DNA of 20,000 bases from Rhizaria sp. SCN 62-66. Taxonomy: Eukaryota. The stretch lies in the NCBI GenBank assembly GCA_001724265.1, contig MEDY01000135.1, forward strand, positions 46,524-66,523, read 5' to 3'. The position numbers were made by a program, and so were the translations under genes. Of the stretch, positions 1 through 20,000 are shown one piece after another. Within the stretch, counting starts at the first letter, position 1. The number at the start of each line of letters is the position of its first letter. Below the pieces are notes generated by a model. That model had not been told where the DNA came from and did not search any database. It saw only the letters and a program-made list of their open reading frames with translations.

Positions 1-2088
1 GCCGCCGCTGCTGCCGCTGCCCATGCGGGCGCGAGTGCGCCTGTGAGCGGCGCGGTGGGTGAGATCGTGGTCGACGTGAGTCCGTTGTCGCTCGTGCACT
101 GGCTGCTGCACCTGCTCGACTGCGCGACCTCGCCGCTGACTCTCCTCGCCGCGCTGCTCGCCGCTGCACGGACCGCCGTTGCCTGGCCCGCCACTGCAAT
201 CTCGGCCGCCCTCTCGACCGCGACCGCCCCCGCCCCTGTGAGAGCGACTGTGGCTGCAACCGTGAGCCACAGCGTGAGCGTGAGCATGAGCACGCTCTGG
301 CTCGTCGCGCTCGCCGCGTCGGCCGCCACGCTGTTGCCCGTCGCCTGGCTCATCGGGCCCTTCCAGTGGTTCACGCCGCCCGCGCTCGCCGCTATCAACA
401 GCAGCAGCAACGGCGCGAACGCAAACGAAGTTAAGCCGCGACTTAGCTTCAGCGCCGCGATGCGCCAGTTCCAGGACTCGACGATGACGACTCCGCAGCG
501 ACACTTGCTGCATGTTGTGGCGCCCGACGCGGTTCGTGAGGCGCGCGAGCGGGACAGCCGCCGCCGGAAGCCTGCTAACAGCAATGCCAGCAGCGCAAAC
601 ACCATCACTAGTGACAGTATGACAGCCCAACCTACTGTTGCGAGTCCTGCGAGCGCTGCAGCTGTGAGCGCAAGTGGTTTTGCGAACAGCAGCAGCAGCA
701 GCAGCAGCAGTGGCGGCGTTGCTGTGACCCCCGCGGCGCGGGGACGGCGCGCCACGCTTGCGCCCAACACCGTCGCCGGCGCCGGCATCGCGTCCCGCAC
801 CAACGCCGCCAGCACGGCCAACACTCCCGGCGTCGGCGTTGGCGTCGCGAGCGCAGCGGCGCCGGGGACGGGCGGAGTCATGCGCTTCAGCGCCCGCACT
901 ACCGGCGGGGCAGCCGTGGTTGCTGCAGGCAGCAGCAAGAAAGCTGCTCTTGCTCAATCACAACAGCAGCAGCAGTTTGACGGCAGTAACAGCGCCGTCA
1001 AAGCTCTGCGCCCGCGCGGGTCCGCCGCGCCGCTCCCGTCGCCCTTGGCGCCGGCGCCTTCGCCCTTTGCGCCCGCCGCCCGGACCCCGTTCACGCTGAG
1101 CGCGCTGTCGCCCTTCGCGCCGCCGCAGCGCGCCCTGAGCTCGGCGTTCGCGCTCGCTGCTCATCACACCGGCAATGACAGCGCGCATGGCAACGACAGC
1201 GGGCTCGAGGAGGGCGGCGAGTGGACCGACGACGACACCAGTGAAGTGGGCTACGGCAACCGCAATAACAATGTCAACAACGCCGGCAGTAGTAGCAAGA
1301 ACGTGAACGGCGCGAGTCGCGGCGGCGCCTACAAGGGCGGATACGACATTAGCGACGGCGACTACAACTACGACGACGACGACGGCGACGCAAACGATGA
1401 CGATGACGACGATGACGTTGCGCTCGGTGATTATGACGACGACTATGACGACGACGACGGCGACTACGGCGACGCGGCGTCGGAAACCAGCGAAGCCTCG
1501 CGCTATACCAATACAAGCAGCTACAGGGGCATCAGCGCCCGCGGCAGCAGAGGCGACGGGAGCAACATCGCCAGCGCCAGCGCCGTTGCGAGCAGCGTCC
1601 GCGCTGCCGCTGCCGGACCGGGCAGGCCTGTCCCTGCGCGCCGCCGCAGCAGCATTTCGCGCGCCGCCGTCCCCAGCGCCAGCGCGGCCGCCACTCCCTC
1701 TGGCGGCCGCCGCCGCAGCAGCATCACGCCCGCGAATGCCGCTGCCGCTGCTGCTGCGGCTGCTGTTGTCAGTGGCACTGGACGCAGAGGCAGGCGCGCC
1801 AGCGACGCCCGCGCGCGCTCGCCCGCCCGCTCCGCCGCGAACTTGACCGCGAACAACGCCGGCAGCCGCAGCGGCAGCCGCAGCCGCAGCTTTGCAGGCG
1901 GCGCATCTAGTCGTGGCACGACCCCTGTCCGCGGCCCCCGCGCCACGACGCCCGTGGGCACGGCGCCCGCGGCGGGCGCGGCGCAGCGGTCAGTGACGCC
2001 GGTGCGCCGGAGCCGGCGCAGCTCGATCAAGGGGCCCTGGGTGGGGCCCGACATCGCGTCGCCGCGCGGCGCCAAGGTCAAGTGGTGA
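1..2088 (+). CDS. 5'-truncated uncharacterised low-complexity protein: hydrophobic/TM-like segments near the window start, Ala/Ser/Gly-rich disordered region, Asp-rich tract, Arg/Ser-rich basic tail
   Basis: Frame 1 is open from base 1 (AAAAAAAHAGASAPVSG...) to TGA at 2086-2088, so the track's GTG start at 43 is probably internal. Strong G/C third-position bias, with an abrupt drop to AT-rich sequence after the stop. No recognisable family motif. Confidence 0.75.
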   Translation, partial: AAAAAAAHAGASAPVSGAVGEIVVDVSPLSLVHWLLHLLDCATSPLTLLAALLAAARTAVAWPATAISAALSTATAPAPVRATVAATVSHSVSVSMSTLWLVALAASAATLLPVAWLIGPFQWFTPPALAAINSSSNGANANEVKPRLSFSAAMRQFQDSTMTTPQRHLLHVVAPDAVREARERDSRRRKPANSNASSANTITSDSMTAQPTVASPASAAAVSASGFANSSSSSSSSGGVAVTPAARGRRATLAPNTVAGAGIASRTNAASTANTPGVGVGVASAAAPGTGGVMRFSARTTGGAAVVAAGSSKKAALAQSQQQQQFDGSNSAVKALRPRGSAAPLPSPLAPAPSPFAPAARTPFTLSALSPFAPPQRALSSAFALAAHHTGNDSAHGNDSGLEEGGEWTDDDTSEVGYGNRNNNVNNAGSSSKNVNGASRGGAYKGGYDISDGDYNYDDDDGDANDDDDDDDVALGDYDDDYDDDDGDYGDAASETSEASRYTNTSSYRGISARGSRGDGSNIASASAVASSVRAAAAGPGRPVPARRRSSISRAAVPSASAAATPSGGRRRSSITPANAAAAAAAAAVVSGTGRRGRRASDARARSPARSAANLTANNAGSRSGSRSRSFAGGASSRGTTPVRGPRATTPVGTAPAAGAAQRSVTPVRRSRRSSIKGPWVGPDIASPRGAKVKW

Positions 2089-2618: not shown

Positions 2619-4116
2619 TTACGCGGAGGGCTGGCCACTGCCGGCGGCGGCGGCCTCGCGCGCCTTCTGGTAGGCCGCCATCTGCGCGTTGAGGTCGCTC
2701 TCAGTCACCTTGGGCTTGGGGGCGGGGGCGGCCTTCTTGGCGGGCGCGGCAGCCTTCTTGACGGGGGCCTTGGCGGGGGACTTGGCGAGGGCGGCGGCGG
2801 GCTTCTTGGAGAGAACCTTCTTGGCCGGGGACGCAGAGGCCGAGGCGGGCACCGCGCGGGACGGCGAGGCGGCGCGCGCGGGGGACGACGGGCTGCGGGC
2901 GGCGACCTTGGCCTGGAGGTGGGCAGGCACCTGTTATATCAAACAATATGGAACAATGTCACGAAAGCAAGAGAGAACAGAAAAGAGCAAAAGATGTTAG
3001 AATATAAAGTAAAAGTCGCAATATGTTTATGAAACTGCATATACACACATATTTACGTATTTACGATTAAAATGTAAAATTAATCGTCACATACCTTGTT
3101 CTTGGGGGCGGGCGAGGAGCGCTGGAGGGGCGCGGCGGCGCGGCGCGGCGCGGGGGCGGGAGAGCGCGAGCGGTCGCGGTGCGAGTCCAACGCAACCTCA
3201 AAGCCGACGTTGCGGTTGTTGTTGTTGTTGTGGCGGGGCGCGTTGAAAGGCGCGTAGCCCATGGCCTGCGTGTCGTAGCCGCGCACAGCGCCGGTCGCGT
3301 GGTGGGGTTGCTGCGACTGGGGCTTCACGGGGCGCGGGTCGGGCTTGGCGGCCGCGGGCGCCGGAGCGGGCGTGCGCTTGACGACGACGGGCGGCGCAGT
3401 GCCGAGCGTGCACTGGAGGTGGACGGACATGATGCGGCCGTCGACAGAGGCACCGTCGTACTCCTCGAGGGCGCGGCGCGCCTCCTCAGGGGTCGCGAAC
3501 GTGATCAGCGATGAGCCGAGGGAGCGGCCAGCCTGGTCGTAGTAGACCGTGACGGAGGTGACGAGGCCGCAGTCGCGGAAGACGTCGTTGCGGAGCTCGT
3601 CCTCGCCGATGGCGGGGTCGAGGTTGGAGACGCGGATGGTGCGGTCGGCCTTGAGGGGGCGCTCGGGGGCCGCGGCCGCGGCGGGGGCGGAGGCGGGCTT
3701 GGGGGGGAAGCCGGACACTGATGACGGAATATCAAGGGCAGATGGTGGTGTAAAACGCAAGAAACACGATGCAAGAAAGAGTGGGGTAAGTGGTGATGCG
3801 GGGAAGCACAGGACGAAAGAAAGCCAATAGTGAAGTGGCCAAGCGAGACCAATGAGTGTTTTGTTAACGCCTGCAAGATCTGATGACAGAATAGTCATAG
3901 TACCACATTGGCACAAATTTAGAAGCAGATCTGTACAGAGATGTGCGTTGTGCAGAACAAAAGGAGCTGATGGTCACGGCAAGCGTGAAAATAGAGAAGG
4001 CGGGAGCTGTTGTAACCCGAGATTCGGGCCGAAGTTTCGCAAGGCTCGGCGAACACGATCCGAGACGAAAAAAGGCAAACCTTTAAATAGGTTGTGATAT
4101 GAGACAGTGACGTACT
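2619..4116 (-). CDS. ALYREF: ALY/REF (THOC4/Yra1-like) RRM mRNA-export adaptor; proposed join(4116, 3717..3095, 2930..2619), 311 aa
   Basis: The RRM 'IRVSNLDPAIGEDELRNDVFRDCGLVTSVTVYYDQAGRSLGSSLITFATPEEARRALEEYDGASVDGRIMSVHL' matches the ALY-type pattern (VSNL...YD.sGRSLG...F....A..A...Y.G..lDGR.M). The C-terminal 'PKVTESDLNAQMAAYQKAR' resembles the ALY C-terminal UAP56-binding motif (EELDAQLDAY). The exons join in frame (936 nt) and end in TAA. The 5'-most exon is less certain than the rest. Confidence 0.85.
2931..3094 (-). other. spliceosomal intron (164 nt, phase 0) in the ALY/REF-like gene
   Basis: Minus strand AAG|GTATGT ... ATAACAG|GTG. AT-rich interval between two GC-rich coding blocks; splicing joins PKNK to VPAHLQ in frame. 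Confidence 0.9.
3718..4115 (-). other. probable first intron (398 nt) of the ALY/REF-like gene, splitting the start codon A|TG
   Basis: Minus-strand acceptor CATCAG|TGTCCGGC sits at the edge of the GC-rich exon, after pyrimidine-rich sequence. Donor CAAA|GTACGT at 4115 is the same hexamer as the donor at 4561. The acceptor is well supported; the donor choice is inferred. Confidence 0.6.
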
Positions 4117-4529: not shown

Positions 4530-6425
4530 ATGTCGCGCTTCCAGCTCCTATGCCAGACGGGTACGTCCTTGAATCTCCTCTTGTCTCTCAAGTTTTGAAC
4601 CGTATCTCTCAATCGCTCTCTGCCCCAAGTGATCTAATTCTATCATCAGTTTCTCTACACCACGCTTCGCTCACACGCTCTGTCTTTTTACTTTGGTTTT
4701 CTTGTACATCTTTCACAGGCTTTTTCATCCCGTCGGGCACCTGCGACTCGAACGCCGACCTCATGAGCGGCTACCGCATCGCCAGCGTGGTCATATGGTC
4801 CATCGCCGTGCTGCTGCTTCTGCCTAACGTCATGTGCCGCCGCCGCCGCTCCCGCTCGCCCTGCGGCAACCTCGTCATCCAGACCCTCTTTATTGCCGCC
4901 GTTTTGCGTCTCTGTAGCTTTGCGCTGGCCCTCGCTGAGGCGCTCCCGCGCGACGCCGCGTTGTTCCTCTTCGGCTCCGGCTCGTGCCTGCTCGCGGCAT
5001 GCTTCACCACGCTGTCCTTCCGCTGGATCAAACTGGGCATCCAGATCCGCTCCCAGCGCCTCGACCACCCGCGCGTGGCGCTCGTGCGCGTGCTCTACAT
5101 TATCCTCGCCGTCCTGCTGCTGAGCCTCTACCTCGCCTCGCTCGCGCCATCAGCGCCTGACGCGCTCGCGCTAGCCGGCCAGGCCAGCATAGGACTGCTC
5201 TTCCTCGTCGCCGCGCTCGCCACGGCCGCGCAGCTCCAGACGCTCTACGGCATGCTGCGCGCGCTCCACGTCGTCACCGTCGCGGTCGGGGAGACGTACC
5301 CGTCCCCTCGCTCCTCGTCCGCAGCCGCTGCCGCTGCTGCGGGTGGCGGCTCCGGCGGCGTCAACAGCCCCACACACAGCCAGCGCAAGGAGCCTCTGCT
5401 CAGCGGCGGTGGCGGCGGCGGCAGCAGCGACAGCGCGGGCGGGCAGCGGTACAACTCGACCGGGCACCGCCACGGCGACAGCGACGGCATGGCTCTGAGC
5501 CACGGCCACGACGGTGGCCACGCGGCCGGCGACAGCGATAGCGCGCGCCGTCTGCGCGCCGTGGGCGTGACGGGCCTCATGGTCGCGCTGCTGACCGCGC
5601 TGTACCTCCTGTGCACGGGCCTCGCGCTGGCCCTGCGCGCGAGTATGGTGCTCACGCCGCTCTTCTTCTTTGTACTCCGCACCGCCGAGCTCTTGTTCGC
5701 GGTGCTCATCTTGCTCACGGCGCACCCGGAGGCGCTGCTGCTGGGCGACGCCGACGCCGACGCCGACGCCGCGGCCGCCGAGGCCGGGCTCACCGGCAGC
5801 GCCTCGGCCTCGGGCTTCACACTGGGCGGCAGCGGCGGCGGCGGCGGCGGGCTCGGCGGTCTGGCGGCGGCCTCGTCGGTTGGCACGGACCCCAACTCGT
5901 TCTCGACCTACAACAACTACAGCTACGGCGCCGGGCTGGTGATGGACGACGACCGCTACGCGGCCGGGTACGACGTGTATGCGGCGCACGGCGTTGATGT
6001 CGCGGGCACGCCGCTCGCCGGGTCCGTGCGCCTGCAGGCCGGCTCGCTGGGCGCCGCCGCGGCGCGGCTGGGGTATTCGCCCGCGGTGTACAACAGCGGC
6101 GCCGGCAGCGGCAGCGGCGGGCTCAGCGGCAACAGCGCGGGCGGCATCGGCAGTCTCGGCGCCGGCAGCGCCGCGGGGGGCGTCATGGTCATCGGCAGCG
6201 CAGGCTCGGCGCACGGTCACCGCATCCACGGCCACGGCCACAGCAGCCACGGGCAGGGCGAGACTGTGGGCTTCTCACGCTTCAGCCCGCTGTCCCCCGC
6301 GGCCGCTGCGGGGGCGCTGGGCGGCGTCGGCTCGGCCTCGGCCTCGGTCTCGATGGGGCCCTCGATGGCGGCCACCGCGGCCGCGCACGCCACTGCCAGT
6401 CACACCGCCGCCGCGGCCAACAACA

Positions 6426-6488
<63 letters not shown>

Positions 6489-6691
6489 TGGAGCCCGGGA
6501 GCGTAGCTGGGTCGAGCGACGGCAGCGGCGGCGTCACCATCGGGTCTCGGTACTCGGTGGCGTCGACACCGATGTCATACGCGTCCTACGGGCAGTTCAG
6601 CCCTTACGCGCCGCAGGGCCACCGCAGCAGCAACTTCGTGCTGCACGCGCAAAGCCCGCCCGGCAAGAGCATCGGGTCGCCGCCCAACTAA
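4530..6691 (+). CDS. 7-TM THH1/TOM1/TOM3 (DUF1084)/GPR137-like membrane protein with a long Gly/Ser/Ala-rich C-tail; join(4530..4560, 4719..6691), 667 aa
   Basis: Seven hydrophobic helices with family-like residues (TM2 'AAVLRLCSF', TM3 'CFTTLSFRW', TM7 'RTAELLFAVLIL'). The spliced N-terminus reads MSRFQLLCQTG-FFIPSGTCDSNADL. Ends TAA at 6689-6691. The family call is from motif recall, not a database search. Confidence 0.75.
4561..4718 (+). other. spliceosomal intron (158 nt, phase 1)
   Basis: ACGG|GTACGT ... long polypyrimidine tract ... TTTCACAG|GC. Splicing puts ATG 4530 in frame with the 7-TM ORF (2004 nt total). Confidence 0.85.
6428..6487 (+). repeat. (GGC)19 GGT trinucleotide repeat encoding poly-Gly20
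   Basis: Perfect GGC run at 6428-6484 followed by GGT, in frame in the 7-TM protein tail. Confidence 0.95.
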
Positions 6692-8015
6692 GAAACCGGG
6701 GGACTGAGGTGAGGGGAGGGAACAGCAAGATGTGACCGCTTCAGTTAGAAAGGTTGGGTCAGTGTCTGGAGTGTCGCTTATTTCAATATAAGCACAACGA
6801 GGCAAGGCACTTGGTCTGATCATGAATGATTTTTATACGTACTACATGGAATGGACTTGGACTTGTGCGATTAATCATGAATGACCAGAGGGAAGATGAT
6901 AACATATAAACGCTACAATAGGGACATGTATAATGATTTAAATAAATACAATAAGCACTAATTTCTCGCCTTACTTCTCATCCACACTCGCAACACATGG
7001 TGAGTGTGTAATTTGAGGCCGTATAGCGCGGTGATAGGAATAAAAGAAGAAAAAAAAAGAAGTGTGCAAAGTTGGAAGTGAACTTGGTTCCTTCAGAAGT
7101 TTATGCTCGTATTCGTGCAAAAGTTAACGCACCAAATAGCAAAAAAAAATGAGGATTATGCCTATAAATCAAAATTTAAAATATTTAATGTAAATAAATA
7201 TATTTGACGGAACAGAGTTCACCCCCAATGGGTGGCTACTACGACTGGTGAGCAAAGACGGGGAAACACCTTTTGCACGAACGACAAAGACTGGTTAATT
7301 TACGGCACTGGAAATTTCGCCGGCTTCATCCAGCCGTGGTGATAAAGAGGTTGTGAATACGGCGATTGACAGAGTTGGTAATATTAATTTTCTATTTCGA
7401 TTGCTTCCGCCATTTTCTAGTAGTCAGGACAGAGCTTGTTTGGGAGCTTAATAGGATGGCTCGTTTGACAAGCAGAACGAAGTTTTTCTTGCCCTTTTAA
7501 AAGGGTTTTGTGCTTATCAATGCTTATTTTGGGGTATTAGGAGTGAAGACATCAGTTGGAAAGTTGCACGCGCCACGTTTTCTTGCGTATATCTTTTTTG
7601 GCCATTAGCTACGATCTCTTTTAGTTCTCACCTTACGTTCAACTTCTATGCTCTTTGCGACGTCGCTTCGCACTTTTTAATTCCCGTCCCCGTAGGAGCG
7701 ACGCAGTTTCCCCCGGCGTCCTGCTCATTTCTATTCTTCTCATTTCTTTCACGAGGCCTAGGTTTTATTCCTACGGCTGCGCTCTGTACTCCAGTATTTG
7801 ACCGATCCCGCTGTTGTGCCGATATTCGATCGCTCCATTGTAGGATCTCATTCGGAGTCTTTGCTTCCTCCTCCGGCCTTGAGCCGTCCTCACAACTGTT
7901 CACACTTATACCAATCTTGACAGCGACGTAAAACACTCGTGAGACTTTTCCTGGCACAAGAACTGAAGGAGTGGACACGTCAAGACACCAAGCACGTGGA
8001 GTTATTGTTACGACA

Positions 8016-11000
8016 ATGTTGCGTTGCTTTCGCTTCTTGTCAGCGCATCTACCGATGCTGCTATTGCTGCTGTCTTCGCTGTCCATTTTTCTGCTCCAAG
8101 TCTCAGCGTCATCGAATTTCTTTTTTCCGTCCACCAGCAACTCTCGCGGTGCCAATGTGTTCGTGCACTTCGTTCTTGATGGCCCGCACTCCGTCAACGT
8201 GGCCACCACTATCTTTCTGTCGACGCTCTCGCCCACGTCCTCGATCCTGTTCGCGGAATTCAGTGGTGGTCTTTCAAACTGTTTTTTTCATGACATTACG
8301 TCGGCGTCGACCCTGTCTGCGATCTCTTACGCTGCGTCCACGTACACCTTCACCGTCACACACACCGCCGACTCGTCCTTGGCTAAGCTCGTCATCTGCT
8401 CTGTGCTGGTGGCCGACGCTGCGGATGTCAATGCGAACAGCACTGCGACAGCGAGCTTTGTTACAGACACTGTGGTAGTAGCCACGGCCTCAATCTACAT
8501 TGCCGCGTCGTTTCTCACTCCAACACTGTCGATGTGGCGTAACAGCGACCAATTCGTACAGTCGCGCCAGAGCACGCCGGTGTACATCTACAACACTTTC
8601 ACCACGCCAGTGGTTTTGGGCAGCGAGGCTGGTAAGTCTACGGCGTTTATGACTATTAAGGTTGCTTGGGCATCTGAGCTAATGACCTGTTCCATGGTCT
8701 TCGAGGGCGGACTTGCGGCAACGGTCGCTGCTCCAACCGTCTCAGGCACTGTTGCGACGTACGCCGTCACGTTCCCGACGCAGATGCGCGAGACCACCGA
8801 GTTCGAGCTCCGATGTCTTGCATATTGGCGCTCTTCCAATGAGTCTGTTTTCTCCGGAGTCAGTATCGATGTTGCACTTATCTTCCCGTCTGGATTCACG
8901 CTCACCAAAAGCCCAAGCTATTTCTACTCCATCGAGTCGACAATGAACAAGACCTTGATCCCTATTGCTAGCACCAGTGATGGCGAGTGGGTTCCCGCAC
9001 TCTCTGGCTCGTCGCACGTGCTCGGCCTTGCGGGTAACGTCGCTGCGGCGAACAAAAGCGGTACTTTTTATTTTGCTATGAAATCCCCCGTTGGGGCAGA
9101 GGTCTACCGCGGCGCGCCGGGTTCATACTGTTTCCTCTTCGCAACACCGCTTAAGGACGACTTCACGGGTCCCGCTGTGTCACACTCACCCCACACACGC
9201 GTTAATAGTCTCACGTATGGCTCTGAGGGATGCACGTTCAGTGTTGCGCAAATGACTATCACAGGCACTGTGTCGGCGGCGCAAACGTCGCTCCAAGTGA
9301 CTATGGGCATTGTTCTTATGGATCCCCCCCTTTCGCTCACCAACAATGTCCCGCAGTCCTCTGTGACGTTCACCAGTATCCAAAACGTGTACCGTGGTGT
9401 GCCAACTGTTCTTGGCCTTTCGCCACTCTTTCAGACCGCGCCGACATACGTTACCACGTTCACGCCGGCCGGCCTATTTGTTCCGCCGCGCTCCTTTACC
9501 GTTACCGTGGGGTCTGAAACTCTTCTGTACCCGGACGACTGGGGCCGGCAAATGCAGAACGCACCCGTGACCTACCGCTCCAACATCACTAGCCCTCGCC
9601 TTTACACGCGTCCCCGGGCTCGCTACTTGCACGCGCAGACTACCAACGCGGCCTCTGCGCCGGTGCTTGGCCGGCTGTCACCCGCGACGTCCGGCCAGCT
9701 CACGTTCTGGTTTGGCGGCATCGCGTTTGAGAAGGCCGAAGACGTGGCGACATCGATCAGCACAATTCGACCCATTCTTGCCGACCTGTGGATGTTTGAC
9801 GCGCTTGGTAACACAACGACGCTGCTGTCAGGCGACCCGTCGCAAACGCGCTCCTCAGCGCGGTTGTATAATAACGGATAGTTCGTTCCCGTTGCCGGCG
9901 ATTACCACCCAGATCTTCACCCCGCGGCGCGGCACTCGGCGTCGCTCGCTTTCGACGCCGCGCTCGAAGTGCTTTGGCTCTACGGCGGCGCCGAGGGACT
10001 TATGGGCAACACCACGTCCGACACGCCTATTGCGCAGCAACGCTTCTTTGATGATCTGTGGTCCTATAACCTCAAGACCAACATGTGGGCGTGGTGGCGC
10101 GGCAGCGTGGTCCCGTTGTATCGTGCGCAGAATGCGACTTTATTCGGCTCGCTCCCGCCGCTCGCCGGCGCCGGTGCTGCAGCGCACGATGGCGTGTTGT
10201 TGATCTACGGCGGCCTGGTTATGAGCGCGGCCAACGCGCCTGAAGGGCGCAAACTGCCGTACTTTGAGCTTGACGCGATGATGATGTTCAACTCCTCCGA
10301 TGGGAGTATCACGCGCTTGGCTGGTGGTAGCAATGGTTACGACTTCACATTCAACGGCGGGACTCCCTTCGTTGGCGCCGCGACAAGCCCGCCTGCGGCA
10401 GCGTATCCGACGCTAGTGTGGAACACGCACGCCGCCACTGGAACGAGCGATGTGTACATGTACGGCGGTGTGCTTGCGCCCAGTCAAGCCGGATTCAGCT
10501 ACTTATCGCTCGACCTGGCCAACTCGCTCAACCCGCACTCTGACTCGAGCGTTCTTACCGGCCTCTGGCGTTTCTCAGTTTTGTCTAAGATCTGGACTCG
10601 TCTCGACGCGCCCACTGTGGCCATGTCGGCTAACCGCGGCCACCCGCGTATTGCGGAGCCGTTGCAGTCGGGCTTCCTCTCGCACCCCGGCGGACGCGTG
10701 TTTGCGGCGATGAACATTGCGCCCAACGGTGATGTGTATCTCTACGGGGGTCGTGGTCACTCGAGTGGGTTTATTATTACACCTAGCGGGTACGGCATCA
10801 GCAATGCGACTGTGCAGACGCTGACGAGTGTGCCTGCGCTTTCACCATTTACTTACCCGCTGTCGAGTCGGTTTGTTAATGGCGCCGATTCAAACGCAGT
10901 GACATTGTACGCGTTTGTCTACTCGGCCAGCGAGCTTCAGAATTCTGGCGTCAGTGTCAATGTGCCGCTTAACGACTTGGACATTATGCTGCGTCTTATG

Positions 11001-14000
11001 TCAACATCACTTGCCATCGGGGCGAGCACGACAACCGCCTTTAAGGTGCGCGCGATGTTGAAGACACTCGAAGGCGTATCGTTCTTTAATGATACCGATA
11101 AGTACAACGCTGCTGCGCTGCGTCAGTGGGGCGAGGAAGTGTTTTTGTACCCTGAGCACGCGTTTGACGCGCGCACATGGAAGGCCGGTACGTTTATGGC
11201 TGTCAACTCGCCGATGCACTCCACCGGCATCGACAGCGCGTTGGAGCCCAACCAGTCGCTCCTGCTCATCCTTCGCATCGAGTATTCGTTCAGCACAGCG
11301 CTGGGTTTGGCTGCACCGACTTATGTTGTCGACATGCTGCAAACAAGCGGCGATACAGGTGTAGCGCTTATCACTATCCCTGGCTATCCGTTCAAGAACG
11401 AGTACTTCACTCGGTACGCTTTTAAGCCAATTCTGATGCTGCGTTCGCGGCTCCCGCCCATTGGCATGCCTTCGCCGCGATCGTCTTTGTCACTGTACTC
11501 GCGCCCGCAGCTCGATGACCTATGGGTCTTCTCCGCGTCACTTCTCCAGTGGCGTTTGCAGTACGGTTTTCCCACCGCTCTCAAGCGCAACGTTGTTTCG
11601 GGCTCCCAACGGCAGTCCGGTGTCGACTACCATTGGCCCGGCGCGCGTCAACAGGCGTCACTTATGATTCCGACATCGTTTACCACCGCTACAACCGCGT
11701 CGGCGTACGACGTGTCACTGTTCCTGCACGGCGGTTACGCCGTATCCCCCACGGTCCACGAGGACTACGAGCTTGGACTCAACCCAGATGCCCCCATCGC
11801 ATTGCACCGGCGTCGCATCACGTTCTACGATGACCTGTGGTCGATCGACATGGGGCCGCAGGTTATTGACAGCGCGGCGCCCGGCGCAGCGGCGTATTCG
11901 ACGAACTCGGGGGCCTCCACCGCGGGGCTGAACCTTTACACACGTGGAATGCCAGTGTATGACGAGTTCATGTACTCGCGGTTGTCGCAGTCGCTCGGCA
12001 ATACGTGTCCCTCGAGCTCCAGCTGCGCATCCACGGCCACGTGTTTGGCGGGCGGCGGGTCTTACTTCTGCCGCTGTGCGTCGTACACATTCGGTGCGAG
12101 CTGCAACAACACTGCGCAAGAAATTGCTCTTATGCAAGGCATGTTCAAGCCGATCGGAGGCACCACGACTCTGGCCTCTCTCGACTTACAGGCGCAGCAC
12201 AGGCCCTTTAGCGCGGTCGCAGTGCACCCCGTGACGAAGGAGGTGTGGGGCTACGGTGGCGTCACATCTAACTCTGATCACGGGCCGCGCATACAGTCAT
12301 CGTTAGTCCGCACAAACCTCGCCTTACGGACACACTCTGAAGTGTCGTACGTGCGGGGGCAGACACAAAGCGAACAGCTCTCGTTCACTACTTCAGTGAC
12401 TGGCTTCTACCCCGTTAAGGAGGTCGGTGTGACGTACGCGTCCGCCACGGAACCCCCCCCGTCCGCTGACGCTATGATGTCTTTTTCCCCCTCTGGCAAC
12501 GCGCTCTATTTGTACGCAGAGAGTCTCGTGTGCTCACCGGGTGTGTGGTGGTTCAACACATCTTCTCTCACATGGGCATCGATTGGCAGCTTCATCTCTG
12601 AGAACTACCCCGCGACGAACGATCACAGTGCAGTTTATGGCAGCTACGGTCAGTACAATTATTCGTACCACCCCGACGCGCGGCAGGGTGCGGCCAAGGC
12701 GAGTCGCCCCGGTTTGATGTGTCTTTATTCGGGTTCGCAAGTCTACTTCCCCGACTTTTCCGCCGGCACTAATGATGACTTATGGTGCGCGCGCACGACT
12801 GATGACCCCGCAGGGATCACTTGGTCGCGTTTGGCGGGATTGACGAGCCGCAAAGTCGCTGGCTTGCTGCCCGTAGCCGCACAGCCCGGCGAGTTTAGCA
12901 CCGTGTGCACGCCTGGTGCACGTGTTGGCGCTTCGCTGGCTTTCTCGACCGATGGCTATTATCTGTACCTCTTCGGCGGCAGCTTGGTGCAGTATGGAAG
13001 CACAGCACAGGCGCTTATGGCTGATTTGTGGGTGTTTTCGATAACCAACATGACATGGGCCTATCTTTCCGGCCCCACAGAGCCTGTCACATCGCTCATG
13101 TCGTCGCATGCCTCGAGTCACTCAATCACCTCAGGCTCGCCCTCGCGGTTGCAGTACCCCGGCGCGCGCATGTTTGCCTCCATGGCAGTCTCCGGCGACG
13201 ATATGCTCTACGTCTCTGGCGGTATTAGGCTTCCCACGGAAGGCACAGGCGCAACCATGGTTGAAAAGACTACGTTTGCGACTTTCGTTCGTCCATTGCA
13301 CGACACGAACACAACGCTGCCGACAGCGGTGTGGGCGCCGTCATTCACCAACAAGACAGCTGCACTTGCGTGGGTGTCGATTGAAGTTGAGACAGGCGCT
13401 GAACCTATAACAAATCAGTGGTTCTGGAGCACAAACTTCATTAACAACGGCCGCTTTGGCACAAGTATGGTTTTTCTCCCGTCGACTATTAGTGTAGAGG
13501 CTCCGTTTGCGACTGACAACACGATCATGACAATGACAGCGGGAATGCAGATGCGCGGTTCCGTCGTCGCTGCTACTGCGTATTACCCATATTTCTCGTT
13601 CCCGCTTTATGACAGCGAAACCGCTGGTCTCGTGCTGCGCACGTCGCCGTGCCGTGTGAATCCATGTCTGAATGACGGTGTCTGTACGATCTGCGCTGCC
13701 GAGGATGCTATGTGCTCCAAAGGTTACATTGACACTGGTATTACATCCTCAGCGTACCATTGTATTTGCTCGACGCGATTTTTTGGTCGCCACTGTGAAC
13801 TCACGCGCGAAACTTATAGGCCCCCATCGGCAGCAACCTCACTCCCGTGTTTCCAGAACGCTGAGTTTGGAACGTCGATCTCAAGCCCGTGTCAGTGTAT
13901 CATCACCAGTCCTGCATCTTTTTTCGGTGTTTTTTGCTCACCTCTTGTTTCGTATTCGATCTATCACAATATCTCAAGCATAAATGACTTGAATCTCGCC

Positions 14001-17000
14001 ACTGACGCAGCTATTGCTGTTGTTCACAATGCCCCCGAGTTCATGTCACTCTCGCTTGGTGCAGAGATTAACAGTACTGTGATCTTCGTTGCCGGTGGCT
14101 CTACTGAACCCAGCAGCTGGGTTACTTCGGATGTGCTCACAGCAGTACTTGTCACGTCACGCACCACAGTCAAAGTCCACCCTCCAACGAGTAACAACAG
14201 CACTAAGGCGATCTACTCGGGCCCCAACACGTACATCGGCCGCCACATCGGTGCCACACTTGTCTACTCACGCTCTTCGGGAATGCTGTTTCTCTACGGC
14301 GGGCTTCATTTTGACCCCACAGGCACGCGGCGTAACCTATACGAGCGCCACTGGCTCATCACGCCTGGCGCCATGGGAACAGTGCGGCTGCCTCAGATCC
14401 TCACGCTCGAGTCACGCCGGGACGTGGTTCAGATCAGGTACAAGCTGGACACCCCCTCACAGGTCACGAGTGTGGATCAATCGGGCCTCACGTTTCACAG
14501 TCGCTCCGACCTCTCTGTTTACCCTGTAGGCACCCCCGGCGCGCGTGCGTACCACTCTGCCGCCGCGGTAACGATCGGTGAAGTCGAGTGGATTTACATG
14601 TTCGGTGGCGCAGTAATCAACTCAGGCGACACTGACGTCGAGTATCTCTCTGACTTGTGGCGTCACCGCGCGCTTGCCTCGGGCACTGTGCAGTGGGAGT
14701 ACGTTGGCTGCTCTCTCGACACCGGATACTTACCTCCGGCCAACATCACGATAGGCGCTTCGCTTGATATCAAGGATGGGTGCCCGATGGCGCGCTCGCA
14801 CACCCAGCTCGTCGCTGTTGGCAACACGCTCTGGCTTGTCGGCGGCCGCGGTGTGCGCGGCGGGTACGATGACGTGTGGTCGTTCAACACGGAGACGGAG
14901 GTCTTCACACTCCGCTCAGGCCTCGCTCTCAAACCTCTTCCCGCAACGTCGTCGAAACATCTCATCAGTGCTTTCACGGGCGATGTGGCGACTACGACCA
15001 TGGGTTCTCGGTACGCACACCGTTGTGACGTGCTGCCGACGGGTACTTCCGTGTACTGCTACGGCGGTTTGACTGCACATGGTGTGGCGGCTGATATGTA
15101 CCGCCGTATTTTGCCGATTAATCTTGCCAAGCATGTTCATTACATTGGCATGAACGATGTGGTTAATCCCTTCACTCTTACGAGGTCGGGTCTCTTCGTC
15201 GCGTTGCTCCCAGTGGCGCACCTTGATGCACCAGGTCTGACGACGCAGAAGCAGACGATTTATGGCGTGACTTTTTTTCTGGCTGACGATTATGACATGA
15301 CGAGCGATGCAATGACCGAGCTCGTGTTATCCATCGGCTATCTTGCAGCCGCGCCCACAGATGAACCGAAGGATATTGACGTGCCGCTGTCAAAGACGAC
15401 ACACTTGATCAAGGCATCAACATTCACCAACCCGCGCACATTTCAGTTCAGCTTACAAGCACCGGTCGAGCGGACGGCGTCGTCTCAGTATCTTGTGATC
15501 CGAATGAGTCTGTCAGTCACTAGGCCAACAAGGATCGATACACGGTTTGCGTTTGGTTCCACTGCAACAATAATTAGTCAAGTTCCCAACACCACAAACG
15601 ATTATTTCACAACCTACAACAATTCGCGCACCAAGACGTGCTTTTTCTTCAACAAGGACTACAGCTAGACGTATGAGACAACTATAATCCCACAGATTAG
15701 GCTACAAATGCAGCCACCTGCTGAGCAGCAGGGCCACACGACTGTTGCTGAGCTCATCAAAATCGACACGACATCCGGGCTTATTTCCCAGGTCTTTGGA
15801 CCCTCAACGCAGGGCAGTGTGCCGCTGTCTTTGTCCAAGGCGAGCATCTTTGCGCGCCCCACTGACGTGCCGAACCTTCCCGACTCCGTGCTGGAGCCGC
15901 TCGATGGCGGTGTGGCCGTTGCAGCTGGTATTTTAACAACCGACTTCTATGCATCGTCAAAGTTTGTACGGCCGTGGACAGTACCGGCGGCTGCGCTGCC
16001 TGTGTTTGCGATGTTGCCACTTGGAAAACCCACTCTTGATCTCATTCCTTCGTTCATTGTGTCGTCGGGCATGTGGCGAATGGAGACAGCGCTGTCAGGC
16101 ACGACGTGGTCTGGTTCTCACATCATGCTCAGCCGCTCGTCGCCGATTACGCAGAGCAACCAAGTCTTTTCCGCGCAAGGCATGAACACAATTTTTGGAG
16201 GCGTGCGCCCTGCGTACTACACTAACACTGTCCCTGAATCGCCTTATCCTGTTGTGACTGCAGCGACCTTTGCTGCGACAATGACGAGCGTTGAGCTTCT
16301 TTTCACCACAACCACGCAGCAACCGCGCTACAGCACATCAGCGTCGGCTGAAAACTGTGCTCTAATGTTTCCCGCCGCGAACCTTGCACACTTCGGCAGC
16401 GGATATACATGTGCGTGGTTAACTCCCTCTGCGTTAAGTATCACACTTGGCGCATCTTTTACTCTGCGCCCCGACGACACGTTAACTGTACTCGGTGATG
16501 TCATCCGTAGCGGCAGTACACTTGCTGAGGGACAGACCCCGCTGTATCTGCCCGAGACTGACTTGCTCGTTATAACTGCGACTACTCCTGTAGTGCCGAC
16601 TGTTGCACTCACAGGCTACAATACGGTCGGACCCTGCGAGGGGCTTACGCTCAGTTCCGCTGGCAGTGTTCACGCCGGTGGCCTTGCCTTTGAGTATGCT
16701 TGGAGCATTACTGGCACGGCGGCGCAGCAAGACAAGCTCGCCGCCATCGTGAGTGCGGCGTACGGTTCCCGTAATAGCAGTATCCCGTTTACTGCAACTA
16801 CGTCACCGCTCTATGCGCCCACGGTTACTGTGCCCGTGGGCGCGATGGTGGAGCTGTTTGGCGCCACAGGGGAGGAGACTACAACGGCGACGTTCACGCT
16901 GCAACTCACCACGTGGTTTGGAAAAACTTCTACAACAAGCTTCTCAGTTTCTCGTGCAGCGTCGATGTTACCTCAAATCTCCATTGCCGGCGGTACGCGC

Positions 17001-20000
17001 GTTGATGTTAAGCCACCGCGCAACGTGCTAGTGAATGCGCTTATATCTCGTGTCGGCCTCTGCTCCGGCGCTATTGTTCGCACCGATATTACATACAAGT
17101 GGAACCAGGTGCTCAGTGATGGCGAGCAGACTGTTAATTTCACTGGCAGTCTTGCATCGCTTCGTGTGCGCGCATATGACTTGCCCGCGCGATCAGCGCC
17201 ATACGTCTTCCGCGTTTTTGTGTCTGATACTGATACTACCACTGGCATGACGTACAACAATTCCGACACCGTCAACGTCTATGTCACGGCATCCCCACTG
17301 CGTGCAGTGCTCACGGGCGGCGATAAGGTCCACAGCTCTGCCGTCACACTTAAACTCTCTGCTTCAACTTCGCGCGATCTAGATGTTAACCCCACGGTCA
17401 GCTCCCAGTCTTTGAATCTCACATATGCGTGGGTGTGCCGTGACGCTTCCAACGCGTCAGTTCCATGTTTCCCCTCCTCGTCGGGAGTAACTGAGCCGAC
17501 AACTGCGGACTGGGAGCTTCCATCGATGCAACTAAAAAAATCACAGGTGACACAAATGCTCTTTACGGTGACTGTGAGTAAGGACTCGCGCAATGCTACT
17601 GCGACGTCGACGGTGACCCTTGTTTCGGAGCAAAAGTATAGCGTGACTATCAATGTGCCGGACCGTGCGCAAATGCTGCAACAGAATCCTATTGTGTTGA
17701 CTGCGGTCGTCGCAAAGATGAGCGGCCCAGGTACGGCTGCTAGCGAGACTGAAAAACCGCTGCCACTTTGGAGCTGCGACACGCGCAATGCCAATATTGA
17801 CGAGGCTGGCATCGTGCTCTTCTCCGGCGCGTTCCCATCGACAGATAACTCGGGTAACATGGTGCACACGCTGACGCTCGCCGGTGAGAAGCTTGTTGCA
17901 GGCATTGCGTACACGTTCCGTCTCTCGCTGTACCCTAATAATTACACTGACACACCGACACAGGCAGAAATTCAGGACTTACCTGTTGGCGCACTGCCCG
18001 ACGAGCTAGTCTCTGCACACGCGTCTTTCAGCATCAACGTCCCGCCGCGCTCTGGCCGCTGTTTTGCCGTCTTCTCTAATCCTGAGGCGATTACTGCAAT
18101 GTCAAACCAACCTTTTACGCTGCAGTGCAGTGGCTGGGAAGATGACGACGGCGATATGCCGTTGACATATCACTGGTATACTGAGTCAAAGCGCGTTTTA
18201 CGCGATGTGGTTAAGAGCAATTGGGTTGAAATCGGCATGGCTCTGCCTTCGCCAACGCTTTCCGTGACGCTCCTTGCGGGTCACGTTGACGACGACTACA
18301 GCCGCACTGTCGCCGTCTACATCACCGACGTCTGGGGCGCTCAGACACGTGTTGAGATTGTCGTGCCCTTCGCTCCACCACCAGAGTCGTTGAAGTGGCA
18401 TGCGTCTCCGTCTTTATACGCCATACTTGAGGACTCTGATGCAGTACAGACTGAGATTGAAACGCTTTTCACGGAGCTCGATGATGCGGTTGAGCTTTCT
18501 GACATCACCACAGTCACACAAACTGTGCTTCGTATCACTGACACTCTTGACTCAGCGAGTGTCACTGCTGAGGAGAATGTGGTTTTCCGTGTTCGTCTGC
18601 TTGCGACTGTGCGCAATGTAGCGACGATGTTTACAATTTCGCAAGATGCACGCCGCGCTGTGGCTGCGCTTGATGAGTCTACCCGCGCTGCTGCTGCTAA
18701 TAGCACGGAGACGATGAGCGATACAAACCAGTTCAACAAGGGCTCAGGTTATTCCGAAGTTGCGATCGAGTTGTTGACGCAGCTCTGCGGCGATGGTAAG
18801 CACTTAAACAGCGATGCGCGCACACAGGTAATGCAGTTCCTGATCTCGCAGACGTCATCATTGGCGTCACTAGACGCGTTCAATGGGATGCAGACTGCGA
18901 CGGCAGACTCGGCGCTTGTGACGACTCAAATGGTTATTGACGCGTTTGCTAATGAGATTACTGGGCTAAACCGCAACATGACGCTCAATAATGCAACTTC
19001 CGACGCAACAGTAGATGGCGCGCGCATGATTGCGCTTCAAAACGAGGCTGCAAGCATTGTCAACGTAATCGAGCAGCAAATGAATGTGCTCGCAATGGGC
19101 TCGATTGCGCAACAAGCTGTTGGACAAGAAGCCGCTCACACAGTCAAGTTTGCTGGTCTTTCCGTTGTATCGTATGCTTTTGCGACTGCACTAGCTCCAT
19201 CAAGCATGGAGTCACAGATGCCCAACACCGTTGACTCTGGCGCTGAGCCCGTTATGGCTCGCGTGACGATGCCGCCGTCGATTAATTCTCTCAACATGAG
19301 TGCTATGCAGGTCGTTATGGTCATGATTGAGGACTCTGCGATCTTCAACCTTGCTGGCATGGATGCTAACACGTATCTCAACGGTTCTGAGTCGTCGCCC
19401 CTGTTGGCGTTCACTGTGTTTAATCGTGCTCTCTCGACTGTGGGCGAAATGACTGTGGGTGAGAATGTCACTGTGCCAGCGCAGCAGCCCATCAAGTTCA
19501 ATCTTTCTGGCAGCAGTACTGTTGGCTACATTATGGCTGGTCGTCCGTTTGCGACGCTTGCTGCTGATGCGGGTGAGTTTTTTACTCTTCAAGTGCCACA
19601 CTCTGCGCCGACGTGGCCCGACGTCAACTTCGTTTGTGAGTGGTGGGACGCCAATGCCGACGGTGTTGGCGGCCAGTGGAGCACGAAAGGCTGTAAGCTT
19701 GTTTCTGTCTCGAGCACCAACACGACGACGACGTGCCAGTGCACTCATCTGACTCTATTCCGCGTGCGGCTCGACTTCAACAACTTTTTGCCCAAATTCA
19801 ACACATTGGACGCGGATGATTTCAAGAACCTCACTTGGACCAACATCAAGGCGCACCCGCTGCCGCTCATCACGTGCGGCGTCTGGTTCGGCGCATACCT
19901 GATCTTTGCGTTCATCGCGGCGATGATTGATCGTCGCAAAGACGCGCGCGCGCTGCGTCACTACCACGGTGAGTGGAGTGACCCACAGCGCAAGCAGTGG
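8016..20000 (+). CDS. giant polycystin-1/PKDREJ-like cell-surface receptor (signal peptide - Kelch blades - EGF - REJ - GAIN/GPS - TM), >3995 codons, 3'-truncated by the window, with two in-frame TAG codons
   Basis: ATG 8016 begins a signal-peptide-like stretch (MLRCFRFLSAHLPMLLLLLSSLSIFLLQVSA). Track ORFs 7971..9881 and 9969..15668 and the unlisted open stretch 15669..20000 share one frame. The 3' part translates to REJ motifs, a complete GPS motif and a TM helix. Confidence 0.85.
9879..9881 (+). other. in-frame TAG no. 1 (codon 622 of the giant gene)
   Basis: ...TAT AAT AAC GGA TAG TTC GTT CCC GTT... = LYNNG*FVPVAGDYHPDLHPAARHSASLAFDAALEVLWLYGG. Confidence 0.95.
12006..12104 (+). other. 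EGF-like domain 1
   Basis: CPSSSSCASTATCLAGGGSYFCRCASYTFGASC: six Cys with the C-x-C-x5-G-x2-C ending. Confidence 0.85.
13650..13937 (+). other. EGF-like domain 2 (with insertion) and a degenerate third EGF-like module
   Basis: PCRVNPCLNDGVC...YHCICSTRFFGRHCE, then PCFQNAEFGTSISSPCQCIITSPASFFGVFC. Confidence 0.8.
15666..15668 (+). other. in-frame TAG no. 2 (codon 2551 of the giant gene)
   Basis: ...AAG GAC TAC AGC TAG ACG TAT GAG ACA... = FNKDYS*TYETTIIPQIRLQMQPP; the frame then stays open to base 20000. Confidence 0.95.
16590..18365 (+). other. REJ module (Ig/FnIII-like repeats of polycystin-1-family proteins)
   Basis: Translated motifs: PTVALTGYNTVGPCEGLTLSSAGS...FEYAWSI; VTASPLRAVLTGGD...LKLSASTSRDLD...LTYAWVC; INVPPRSGRC...FTLQCSGWEDDDGDMPLTYHW; VYITDVWGA. 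Boundaries are approximate. Confidence 0.85.
19635..19760 (+). other. GPS motif (end of GAIN domain) with HL|T autoproteolysis site at 19746-19754
   Basis: CEWWDANADGVGGQWSTKGCKLVSVSSTNTTTTCQCTHLTLF matches C-x-x-W...W-x3-G-C...C-x-C-x-H-L-T-x-F. Confidence 0.92.
19857..19929 (+). other. first transmembrane helix after the GPS
   Basis: PLPLITCGVWFGAYLIFAFIAAMI followed by the basic stop-transfer stretch DRRKD. Confidence 0.85.

What the first reader, a model, noticed from the sequence alone, without database searches (positions are those of the whole stretch)
8016..20000. A 3995-codon frame broken only by two TAG codons: candidate UAG stop-to-sense recoding in a eukaryotic nuclear genome
Seen: one frame runs from a signal peptide to GPS+TM. 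Its only interruptions are TAG at 9879 and TAG at 15666, with no TAA, TGA or frameshift. The three genes that terminate in the window use TGA (2086), TAA (2621-2619) and TAA (6689). The signal peptide needs the downstream TM and GPS to make architectural sense, and the downstream pieces lack a signal peptide of their own. EGF cysteines and the GPS HLT triad downstream are intact. Established: UAG-only reassignment with UAA/UGA kept as stops is rare but known (UAG=Leu in the rhizarian 'exLh', UAG=Gln in Iotanema spirale, some ciliates). Inference: this organism may read UAG as a rare sense codon. Two events and three stops are a small sample, so this is suggestive only.
Basis: partly seen in the sequence, partly recalled or inferred. 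Interest (0 to 1): 0.88.

Follow-up and report, generated by a model that had tools for sequence, protein, structure and literature searches.

The report
Two real TAG stops in giant gene
A giant surface-receptor gene of an uncultured wastewater protist really carries two in-frame TAG stop codons, but the data fit a young pseudogene in a decaying gene family at least as well as a changed genetic code.

Summary
Frame 8016-20000 has 3995 codons and only two stops, TAG at 9879 and TAG at 15666. Both TAGs recur unchanged in assemblies from other samples, ten years apart, that differ by SNPs elsewhere. They are not sequencing errors.

A 4671-aa metagenomic homolog is collinear across both sites. Five further homolog clusters align continuously across the first site. 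So this is one gene. The TAGs lie in homologous coding sequence, not in introns.

The recoding reading is not established.
- No genome is held.
- All TAG sites fall in variable alignment columns.
- Random nonsense hits on this gene's codons would be TAG 53% of the time, so P(both TAG) = 0.29.
- One of the two relatives whose DNA I could fetch carries a TAG, a TAA and a frameshift, so this family does decay.

Against a simple pseudogene reading:
- The other relative has two TAGs and no other lesion.
- Neither that relative nor the window gene has a frameshift, over about 4,700 codons.
- The best-conserved part of the protein lies downstream of both TAGs.

My odds: young pseudogene or null allele about 0.5; UAG read-through, editing or reassignment about 0.35 together. 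Typing in-frame TAGs and terminators across this organism's other contigs would decide it.

The parts
8016..9878 (+). Piece 1 of the giant gene (621 codons). It has a signal-peptide-like N-terminus (8016-~8111), an N-terminal region with no Pfam family, and Kelch-like motifs FWFGG (9699-9719) and DLWMFD (9783-9800) just before the first TAG.
   Evidence: This ORF is protein P0001, seen on 6 contigs. It is 30% identical to P0042.
9879..9881 (+). In-frame TAG 1 (residue 622), context aacggaTAGttcgtt.
   Evidence: It is unchanged in contigs of X2 (7000-12206) and X3/X4 (9100-10358). It sits in a variable-length loop and aligns with E/T/A in homologs.
9882..15665 (+). Piece 2 (1928 codons), holding Kelch beta-propeller repeats (e.g. 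12906-13130, 14532-14909) and an EGF-like module (13650-13793, weak).
   Evidence: The ORF from its ATG at residue 663 is P0002, seen on 4 contigs. It is 37% identical to P0042.
15666..15668 (+). In-frame TAG 2 (residue 2551), context tacagcTAGacgtat.
   Evidence: It is unchanged in contigs of X2 (14219-19889) and X3/X4 (14140-16074). It aligns with K of P0042, and homology resumes at the very next residue.
15669..20000 (+). Piece 3 (1444 codons, runs off the window). It holds a REJ-like region, the GPS motif (19632-19760, with CTHLTLF at 19734-19760) and the first transmembrane span (19860-19928).
   Evidence: GPS. REJ is inferred from 57% identity to P0042, whose REJ domain scores E 1.7e-27, and from Atlas leads. 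Pfam REJ was not detected in the window copy itself.
2619..3721 (-). Neighbouring RRM-protein gene. Exons at 3095-3721 and 2619-2930, a 164-nt AT-rich intron at 2931-3094 (GTATGTGAC...AACAG, GC 0.28), terminator TAA at 2621-2619.
4550..6691 (+). Neighbouring low-complexity, GC3-rich (0.87) ORF ending in TAA at 6689-6691.
1..2088 (+). Neighbouring low-complexity, GC3-rich (0.80) ORF, open at the window's 5' end, ending in TGA at 2086-2088.

Best explanation
Window 8016-20000 is the first 3995 codons of one giant, intronless gene. It encodes a signal peptide, an unknown N-terminal domain, several Kelch propellers, an EGF-like module, a REJ-like region, GPS and a transmembrane anchor. The host is an uncultured, intron-bearing eukaryote from wastewater and bioreactor communities. 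The gene belongs to a multi-copy family with a variable ectodomain and a conserved C-terminal anchor.

The two TAG codons are real genomic premature stops, fixed in every sampled population. Most likely this copy is a young pseudogene or null allele. Two single-base nonsense substitutions (for example from GAG, AAG or CAG) hit a non-essential family member too recently for further decay. The gene is still transcribed.

Shown: the TAGs are real, this is one gene, the TAGs are not in introns, and the family decays elsewhere. Inferred: the TAGs actually terminate translation here.
For: (1) The TAGs are real. X2 contigs from another study in 2025 cover 7000-12206 and 14219-19889 with 4 SNPs (7347, 7613, 9832, 15358), none at the TAGs. 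X3/X4 contigs are identical over both sites.

(2) This is one gene. Five homolog clusters (P0003, P0004/P0042, P0005, P0006, P0007, P0010; 34-44% identity) align continuously across residue 622. The 4671-aa single ORF P0042 is collinear across both sites.

(3) The nonsense spectrum computed from this gene's own codons is TAG 0.53, TAA 0.26, TGA 0.21, so two TAGs have P = 0.29.

(4) The family decays. L001, a relative with the same intron style, has an in-frame TAG (700), an in-frame TAA (3683) and a frameshift near 2740. The ORF ends caused by the TAA and the frameshift recur in proteins from separate collections.

(5) All 5 family TAGs lie in variable columns, with no consistent aligned residue.

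(6) There is no in-frame TAG in the other window genes. No intact allele appears among 1.84 G cluster representatives.

(7) Both CDS SNPs between strains are non-synonymous: G606D and T2448I.

(8) Identity to P0042 is mosaic (30%, 37% and 57% by piece, roughly nine-tenths by eye around GPS and the TM span), as expected of a variable surface-protein family.
Against: All 4 lesions in the window gene and in L002 are TAG. Neither has a frameshift, TAA or TGA, over about 4,730 codons. If frameshifts are roughly as common as nonsense hits (my assumption), this pattern has a probability of only a few percent.

All 3 family loci with available DNA carry an in-frame TAG.

The best-conserved part of the protein lies downstream of both TAGs and is intact.

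SNP density is 2 per 1,016 nt upstream against 2 per 11,985 nt in the CDS (Fisher p = 0.033), which hints at continuing constraint.

polyA-RNA contigs map before and after both TAGs.

0 of 3 genuine terminators are TAG, and all 3 are followed by G. The in-frame TAGs are followed by T, A, A, C and A.
Confidence: 0.5

Rival explanations
1. Genome-wide reassignment. In this protist clade UAG is decoded as a rare sense codon, and UAA and UGA remain the terminators. The gene would then be intact.
For: 5 of 6 in-frame stops in family DNA are TAG: 2 in the window, 1 in L001, 2 in L002. There is no frameshift or other stop in the window gene or in L002. 0 of 3 terminators in the window are TAG. The TAGs are stable over 10 years and several sites. 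The conserved C-terminal 1444 codons downstream are intact. UAG-only reassignment is precedented (PMC5304391, passages read).
Against: No TAG falls at a conserved column and no consistent residue emerges. TAG frequency is 2 per 3995 codons, with none in about 1,520 other codons in the window. By contrast, exLh has 71 in-frame UAGs in 8 conserved proteins. P0042 (4671 aa) and P0003 (2302 aa) are TAG-free ORFs. L001 additionally needs a TAA and a frameshift, so decay must be invoked anyway. 5 TAG: 1 TAA: 0 TGA does not differ from the neutral spectrum (my binomial estimate p about 0.14, using shares). No tRNA gene lies in the window. The prior for a new nuclear code is low, and the window was picked for this very pattern.
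Confidence: 0.15
2. Leaky or gene-specific read-through. UAG is still a stop, but near-cognate tRNAs read through it often enough, in a weak termination context, to give some full-length receptor.
For: In-frame TAGs are followed by T or A in the window and by A, C or A in relatives. All 3 genuine stops are followed by G. 3 of 5 TAGs are followed by a Thr codon ACN (binomial p = 0.0099 before correction for the post hoc choice). All TAGs sit at variable positions, where any inserted residue would be tolerated.
Against: By eye, the codons after the TAGs (TTC GTT; ACG TAT) do not resemble the read-through contexts I recall (a CARYYA-type hexamer, CUAG). There is no unusual RNA structure around any of the 4 TAGs folded (z from -0.80 to +0.80). 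Two successive read-throughs would give a very low yield. No protein data exist.
Confidence: 0.13
3. Restorative RNA editing. The middle A of UAG is deaminated (UAG to UGG, Trp) in some life stage, as in filamentous fungi where premature UAG codons in 'pseudogenes' are corrected.
For: Every lesion in the window gene is UAG, the triplet edited in the fungal cases (PMC4817773 and PMC10776026; abstracts seen in the listing only).
Against: The RNA-derived contig of X5 that carries SNP 9832 shows no other letter at 9879-9881. That it covers the site is my inference from tables 2 and 3, and contigs drop rare variants. Homologs do not have Trp at either site. No hairpin surrounds the TAGs. The host is not shown to be a fungus.
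Confidence: 0.06
4. Artefact or mis-modelled structure. The TAGs would be sequencing or assembly errors, lie in short in-frame introns, or separate three independent genes.
For: In-frame GT..AG candidates exist over both TAGs, at 9808-9912 and 15638-15700. An ATG lies 13 codons after TAG 2.
Against: Independent assemblies agree at both sites. Both candidate introns would delete residues conserved in homologs (GNTTTLLSGDP; IPQIR). The window shows no insertion relative to P0042 at either site. Real introns here are about 106-185 nt, AT-rich (GC 0.28 for the one measured) and start GTATGT or GTACG, whereas no 60-nt window of the gene falls below GC 0.35. The X5 RNA contig carries SNP 9832, which lies inside the first candidate. 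Homologs are single proteins across both sites.
Confidence: 0.04

Closest known systems
UAG-only nuclear code variants (Rhizaria sp. exLh, UAG=Leu; Iotanema spirale, UAG=Gln; PMC5304391)
   Same: In-frame UAG, with UAA and UGA seen as the terminators of neighbouring genes (3 of 3 here). In exLh the terminators were 56 UAA and 15 UGA (passage read).
   Different: In those organisms UAG is abundant in conserved genes (71 in 8 proteins) and sits at hyperconserved Leu or Gln positions. Here there are 2 in 3995 codons, only in one fast-evolving family, at variable positions. No housekeeping gene could be examined.
Premature UAG codons corrected by A-to-I editing in Fusarium graminearum 'pseudogenes' (PMC4817773, PMC10776026; abstracts only)
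   Same: Genomic in-frame UAG codons inside otherwise intact, transcribed ORFs.
   Different: No edited base was seen in the one RNA assembly available. The host is not shown to be a fungus, and homologs lack Trp at these sites.
Polycystin-1 / sea-urchin REJ type receptors and GPS-containing adhesion receptors
   Same: A large ectodomain, then a REJ domain (in homolog P0042), then a GPS motif with HLT, then a transmembrane span immediately after.
   Different: No PLAT or PKD-channel domain was found in the full-length homolog. The ectodomain is built from Kelch propellers, EGF-like modules and an unknown N-terminal domain. By my reading of its tail, P0042 has about 4-5 hydrophobic spans and then a low-complexity region.
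Pseudogene-rich families of variable surface proteins in protists (recalled general knowledge, no call)
   Same: Mosaic conservation (30% identity at the N-terminus, about nine-tenths by eye around the anchor). Members carry stops and frameshifts (L001).
   Different: Family size, genomic arrangement and any recombinational use are unknown here.

Membership tests
Nuclear genetic code with UAG as sense codon | In-frame UAG at conserved positions of conserved proteins, matching one amino acid | tested here: inconclusive
   Only this gene family could be examined. 5 in-frame TAGs all lie in variable columns, aligned to E/T/A, K, A/M, a gap, and R/P. No housekeeping genes were available, because no genome is held.
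Nuclear genetic code with UAG as sense codon | UAG not used as a terminator | tested here: inconclusive
   0 of 3 terminators in the window are TAG (TGA, TAA, TAA). The sample is far too small.
Nuclear genetic code with UAG as sense codon | A tRNA with anticodon CUA and/or an altered eRF1 | not testable with these tools
   ARAGORN finds 0 tRNA genes in the 20-kb window.
Pseudogene or null allele | Disabling lesions inside sequence homologous to an intact relative | tested here: met
   Both TAGs lie in sequence collinear with the uninterrupted 4671-aa homolog P0042.
Pseudogene or null allele | A mixed lesion spectrum (frameshifts and all stop types) and relaxed constraint | tested here: inconclusive
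   In the window gene only TAG occurs, twice, with no frameshift. In relative L001 the feature is met: TAG, TAA and a frameshift. On constraint, 2 of 2 CDS SNPs are non-synonymous, but SNP density is 12-fold lower than upstream.
Programmed stop-codon read-through | A known stimulatory 3' context or a downstream RNA structure | tested here: not met
   The contexts are TAG TTC GTT and TAG ACG TAT. The comparison motifs are recalled, not taken from a call. Fold z-scores run from -0.80 to +0.80 for the 4 sites folded.
REJ/GPS (polycystin-1-like) receptors | A GPS motif followed directly by a transmembrane span | tested here: met
   Pfam GPS scores 37.3 bits (cutoff 22.5) at residues 1322-1364 of piece 3. 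The hydrophobic span at 19860-19928 was judged by eye.
REJ/GPS (polycystin-1-like) receptors | A REJ domain | tested here: inconclusive
   Pfam does not detect REJ in the window copy. It is present in homolog P0042 (E 1.7e-27), to which piece 3 is 57% identical. The Atlas neighbours are REJ clusters with scores 0.83-0.88, which are leads only.
REJ/GPS (polycystin-1-like) receptors | A PLAT domain and a polycystin channel region after the first TM | tested here: not met
   Neither family appears among the Pfam hits of full-length P0042 at E <= 0.01. The window itself ends before this region.

The most novel reading that the evidence does not exclude
An uncultured, intron-bearing, GC-rich protist clade that is widespread in wastewater reactors decodes UAG as a rare sense codon, or reads it through efficiently, while keeping UAA and UGA as terminators. 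That would be an early-stage UAG-only reassignment. It would be visible as lone TAG codons in otherwise intact giant receptor genes: 5 TAGs in three family loci.
Probability: 0.15. Interest if true: 0.85.

Novelty: new member of a known kind. Interest (0 to 1): 0.4.

Why it matters
If the TAGs are simply nonsense mutations, this is an ordinary young pseudogene in a previously undescribed family of giant Kelch/EGF/REJ/GPS receptors of an uncultured protist. That would be of modest interest.

If UAG is decoded, it would be a new, independent and possibly incipient UAG-only code change in a free-living eukaryote. The codon would still be very rare, which is the stage that codon-capture and ambiguous-intermediate models disagree about.

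The question is cheaply decidable, because the organism is well covered in several public runs and sits on contigs of up to 164 kb.

Tried and rejected
Sequencing or assembly error: rejected.

Short in-frame introns over the TAGs: 118 and 183 GT/GC..AG candidates were enumerated, and the best were 9808-9912 and 15638-15700. Rejected on homology, composition and the RNA contig.

Three separate genes: rejected on homolog continuity.

Collection scans:
- JGI metagenome scan with the whole protein found nothing.
- With A3 it returned 13 loci. 2 of them (L001, L002) are family members, and the other 11, at 27-32% identity, I took for unrelated Kelch proteins.
- Genome contigs gave 10 loci, all bacterial MAG Kelch proteins at 27-35% identity.
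- Viral contigs gave none.

The search for homologous proteins gave no hit and only P0003 plus one unrelated protein. It missed P0004 and P0042, which HMMER had found, so its blanks are not evidence.

The AlphaFold model of residues 545-1010 had mean pLDDT 53, with residues 1-67 below 50. It could not show whether a propeller blade lies upstream of TAG 1. Pfam also finds no Kelch match upstream of TAG 1. That the domain straddles the TAG therefore rests on the motifs FWFGG and DLWMFD alone.

Rfam found 0 matches in the window, L001 and L002. Atlas searches gave no taxonomic lead. The literature search for a wastewater protist with a variant code listed nothing relevant among the 15 shown (listing only).

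RNA cover of TAG 2 in X5 is not shown. The joint 9946->10085 is seen in DNA and RNA runs alike with 20-letter sides. I take it for another locus, not splicing.
Full report
OBSERVATION. Translating window 8016-20000 (+) gives 3995 positions with exactly two stops, at residues 622 and 2551. They read ggaTAGttc at 9879-9881 and agcTAGacg at 15666-15668. In-frame counts are TAA 0, TAG 2, TGA 0. The other two frames of the same stretch hold 111 and 182 stops. GC3 is 0.66, 0.66 and 0.59 in the three pieces and exceeds GC1 and GC2 in each, so all three are coding in this frame. Pfam places Kelch families and a sub-threshold EGF match in the middle piece, and GPS (37.3 bits) in the last piece. CTHLTLF and a hydrophobic span follow.

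WHAT KIND OF GENOME. The minus-strand RRM gene has a 164-nt intron at 2931-3094. It begins GTATGTGAC, ends AACAG, and has GC 0.28 against about 0.70 in the exons. Removing it joins the two exons in phase and leads to the TAA. The host is therefore a eukaryote with spliceosomal, AT-rich introns. No whole genome is held. The stretch 9000-16500 is held by runs labelled bioreactor, wastewater and activated-sludge metagenomes (X1-X5), with word shares of 1.00, 0.96, 0.88, 0.88 and 0.31 (RNA). I could not place the organism taxonomically: Rfam gave 0 matches and the Atlas searches gave no useful taxa.

ARE THE TAGS REAL? Yes. In X2 (another study, 2025) one contig covers 7000-12206 with three differences (7347, 7613, 9832). 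Another covers 14219-19889 with one difference (15358). Neither TAG is changed. In X3 and X4 contigs 9100-10358 and 14140-16074 are identical to the window. X3 and X4 have identical records and probably count once. The exact ORFs bounded by the TAGs (P0001, 621 aa; P0002, 1888 aa) are on record from 6 and 4 contigs. No allele bridging TAG 1 appears among 1.84 billion cluster representatives.

The polyA metatranscriptome X5 has contigs along the gene before TAG 1, between the TAGs and after TAG 2. It shares X2's SNPs at 7613, 9832 and 15358. The contig carrying 9832 lies 80 letters from its end and accounts for about 220 nt of its depth bin. It must therefore cover 9879-9881, and no other letter is listed there. 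That coverage is my inference from tables 2 and 3, because the record itself was not among the rows shown. RNA cover of TAG 2 is not shown. DNA carry-over in the RNA library cannot be excluded.

ONE GENE OR THREE? One. A HMMER search with residues 1-1200 found 41 proteins at E <= 0.001. Two are the window's own pieces. Eight are family members at E <= 1e-40. Of those eight, P0003 (2302 aa), P0004 (3754 aa), P0005, P0006, P0007 and P0010 align in a single stretch across residue 622. P0042, a 4671-aa single ORF in the same 90% cluster as P0004, is collinear with the whole window protein. Piece 2 matches P0042 642-2407. Piece 3 matches 2570-4003, starting at its second residue. The unmatched linker is 165 residues in the window against 163 in P0042. 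P0042 carries REJ (E 1.7e-27) and GPS. By my reading of its tail it then has about 4-5 hydrophobic spans and a low-complexity region. All of these relatives are unnamed metagenome proteins.

NOT INTRONS. In-frame GT..AG candidates exist at 9808-9912 and 15638-15700. Each would delete residues conserved in homologs: GNTTTLLSGDP, and IPQIR against RPQLR. The window has no insertion relative to P0042 at either TAG. No 60-nt window of the gene falls below GC 0.35, whereas the one real intron measured has GC 0.28. The X5 contig carries SNP 9832, which lies inside the first candidate.

WHAT STANDS OPPOSITE THE TAGS? TAG 1 lies in a variable-length loop between the conserved DLWMFD...GDP and RPAARHSA blocks. 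It aligns with E (P0042/P0004), T, A, E (P0006/P0044) and T, with a gap in P0007. TAG 2 aligns with K in P0042, the only cluster that bridges it. No residue is indicated. E (GAG) and K (AAG) are one step from TAG, as a nonsense substitution would require.

IS 'ONLY TAG' SURPRISING? Not much. Weighting every single-base change of the gene's own codons gives a nonsense spectrum of TAG 0.53, TAA 0.26-0.23 and TGA 0.20-0.23 for kappa 1-4. P(both TAG) is therefore 0.28-0.29. The lack of frameshifts is more notable. Nonsense changes are 2.9% of substitutions. If frameshifting indels are 4-8% as frequent as substitutions (my assumption), two disabling hits would both be nonsense only 7-18% of the time.

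RELATIVES WITH DNA. A JGI metagenome scan with alignment A3 gave 13 loci, of which two are family members. Both have AT-rich introns starting GTACG, the same style as the window.
- L001 (4597 bp) has an in-frame TAG at 700. It has a frameshift near 2740, with homology continuing across it and no AT-rich stretch there. It has an in-frame TAA at 3683, in W*LAHGY opposite R, K or E. The ORF ends made by the frameshift and the TAA recur in proteins from other collections (P0043, P0044, P0012, P0047). These lesions are therefore real, and L001 looks like a decaying pseudogene.
- L002 (2336 bp; spliced model of 735 codons) has TAG at 156 and TAG at 1062-1064. The second is the last codon of its exon (AAC TAG|GTACGT). 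There are no other lesions.

Across the family's DNA the tally is TAG 5, TAA 1, TGA 0 and frameshift 1. Against the neutral spectrum, 5 or more TAG out of 6 stops has p of about 0.14 (my binomial shares). Leaving out the window, which was selected for its TAGs, 3 of 5 lesions are TAG, which is unremarkable.

WEAK SIGNALS EITHER WAY. Both CDS SNPs between strains are non-synonymous (G606D, T2448I), which fits relaxed constraint. Yet SNP density is 2 per 1,016 nt upstream against 2 per 11,985 nt in the CDS (Fisher p = 0.033), which fits constraint. The three genuine stops are each followed by G. The five in-frame TAGs are followed by T, A, A, C and A. Three of the five are followed by a Thr codon (binomial p = 0.0099, post hoc). 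RNA folding around four of the TAGs is unremarkable, with z from -0.80 to +0.80. Identity to P0042 rises from 30% (piece 1) to 37% (piece 2) to 57% (piece 3), and by eye to about nine-tenths around GPS and the TM span. This is a family with a variable ectodomain and a conserved anchor, and the conserved part lies intact downstream of both TAGs.

VERDICT. The best-supported reading (about 0.5) is a transcribed, recently inactivated member of a multi-copy giant-receptor family that demonstrably decays in related genomes. UAG reassignment (about 0.15), leaky read-through (about 0.13) and restorative editing (about 0.06) remain open. Error, introns and separate genes are effectively excluded (about 0.04 together). 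Known UAG-only codes use UAG abundantly at conserved positions of ordinary genes (PMC5304391, passages read), and nothing of that kind could be examined here. The decisive analysis is a survey of codon usage and terminators across this organism's other contigs in the public runs.

Noticed in passing
L001:700, L001:~2740, L001:3683: A family member on a JGI metagenome contig carries an in-frame TAG, a frameshift and an in-frame TAA. The ORF ends they cause recur in proteins from other collections. It is likely a pseudogene.
   Followed up: yes
L002:156 and L002:1062-1064: A second family member has two in-frame TAGs and no other lesion. One of the TAGs is the last codon of an exon, directly before a GTACGT donor.
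   Followed up: partly
window 9882, 15669; L001:703; L002:159 and 1171: 3 of the 5 in-frame TAGs are followed by a Thr codon ACN (window TAG 2, L001, and the L002 junction), with p = 0.0099 post hoc. By contrast, all three genuine terminators in the window are followed by G.
   Followed up: partly
window 15669-20000 versus P0042: Conservation is mosaic. Identity to the 4671-aa homolog is 30%, 37% and 57% in pieces 1-3, and by eye about nine-tenths around GPS and the TM span. This suggests a variable ectodomain on a conserved anchor, or gene conversion at the 3' end.
   Followed up: partly
window 7434-7711: A polyA-RNA contig of X5 lies 305-582 nt upstream of the ATG at 8016, in the AT-rich spacer. 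It may be a long 5' UTR of the giant gene, the 3' UTR of the upstream gene, or DNA carry-over.
   Followed up: no
window 9924-10104: All four laid runs, DNA and RNA alike, hold a contig that matches only about 20 letters on each side of a 138-nt skip (9946->10085), with the same foreign flanks. It is probably another locus or organism, not splicing.
   Followed up: no
window 1-2088 and 4550-6691: Two neighbouring ORFs have GC3 of 0.80-0.87 and no Pfam family. They contain extreme low-complexity runs (for example 22 consecutive Gly, and Asp/Asn/Ala/Ser tracts). The giant gene's GC3 is much lower, at 0.59-0.66.
   Followed up: no
window 4550-4575: The sequence just after the ATG at 4550 reads GG|GTACGTCC, which looks like an intron donor. 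The first part of the 713-aa ORF may therefore include an unrecognised intron.
   Followed up: no
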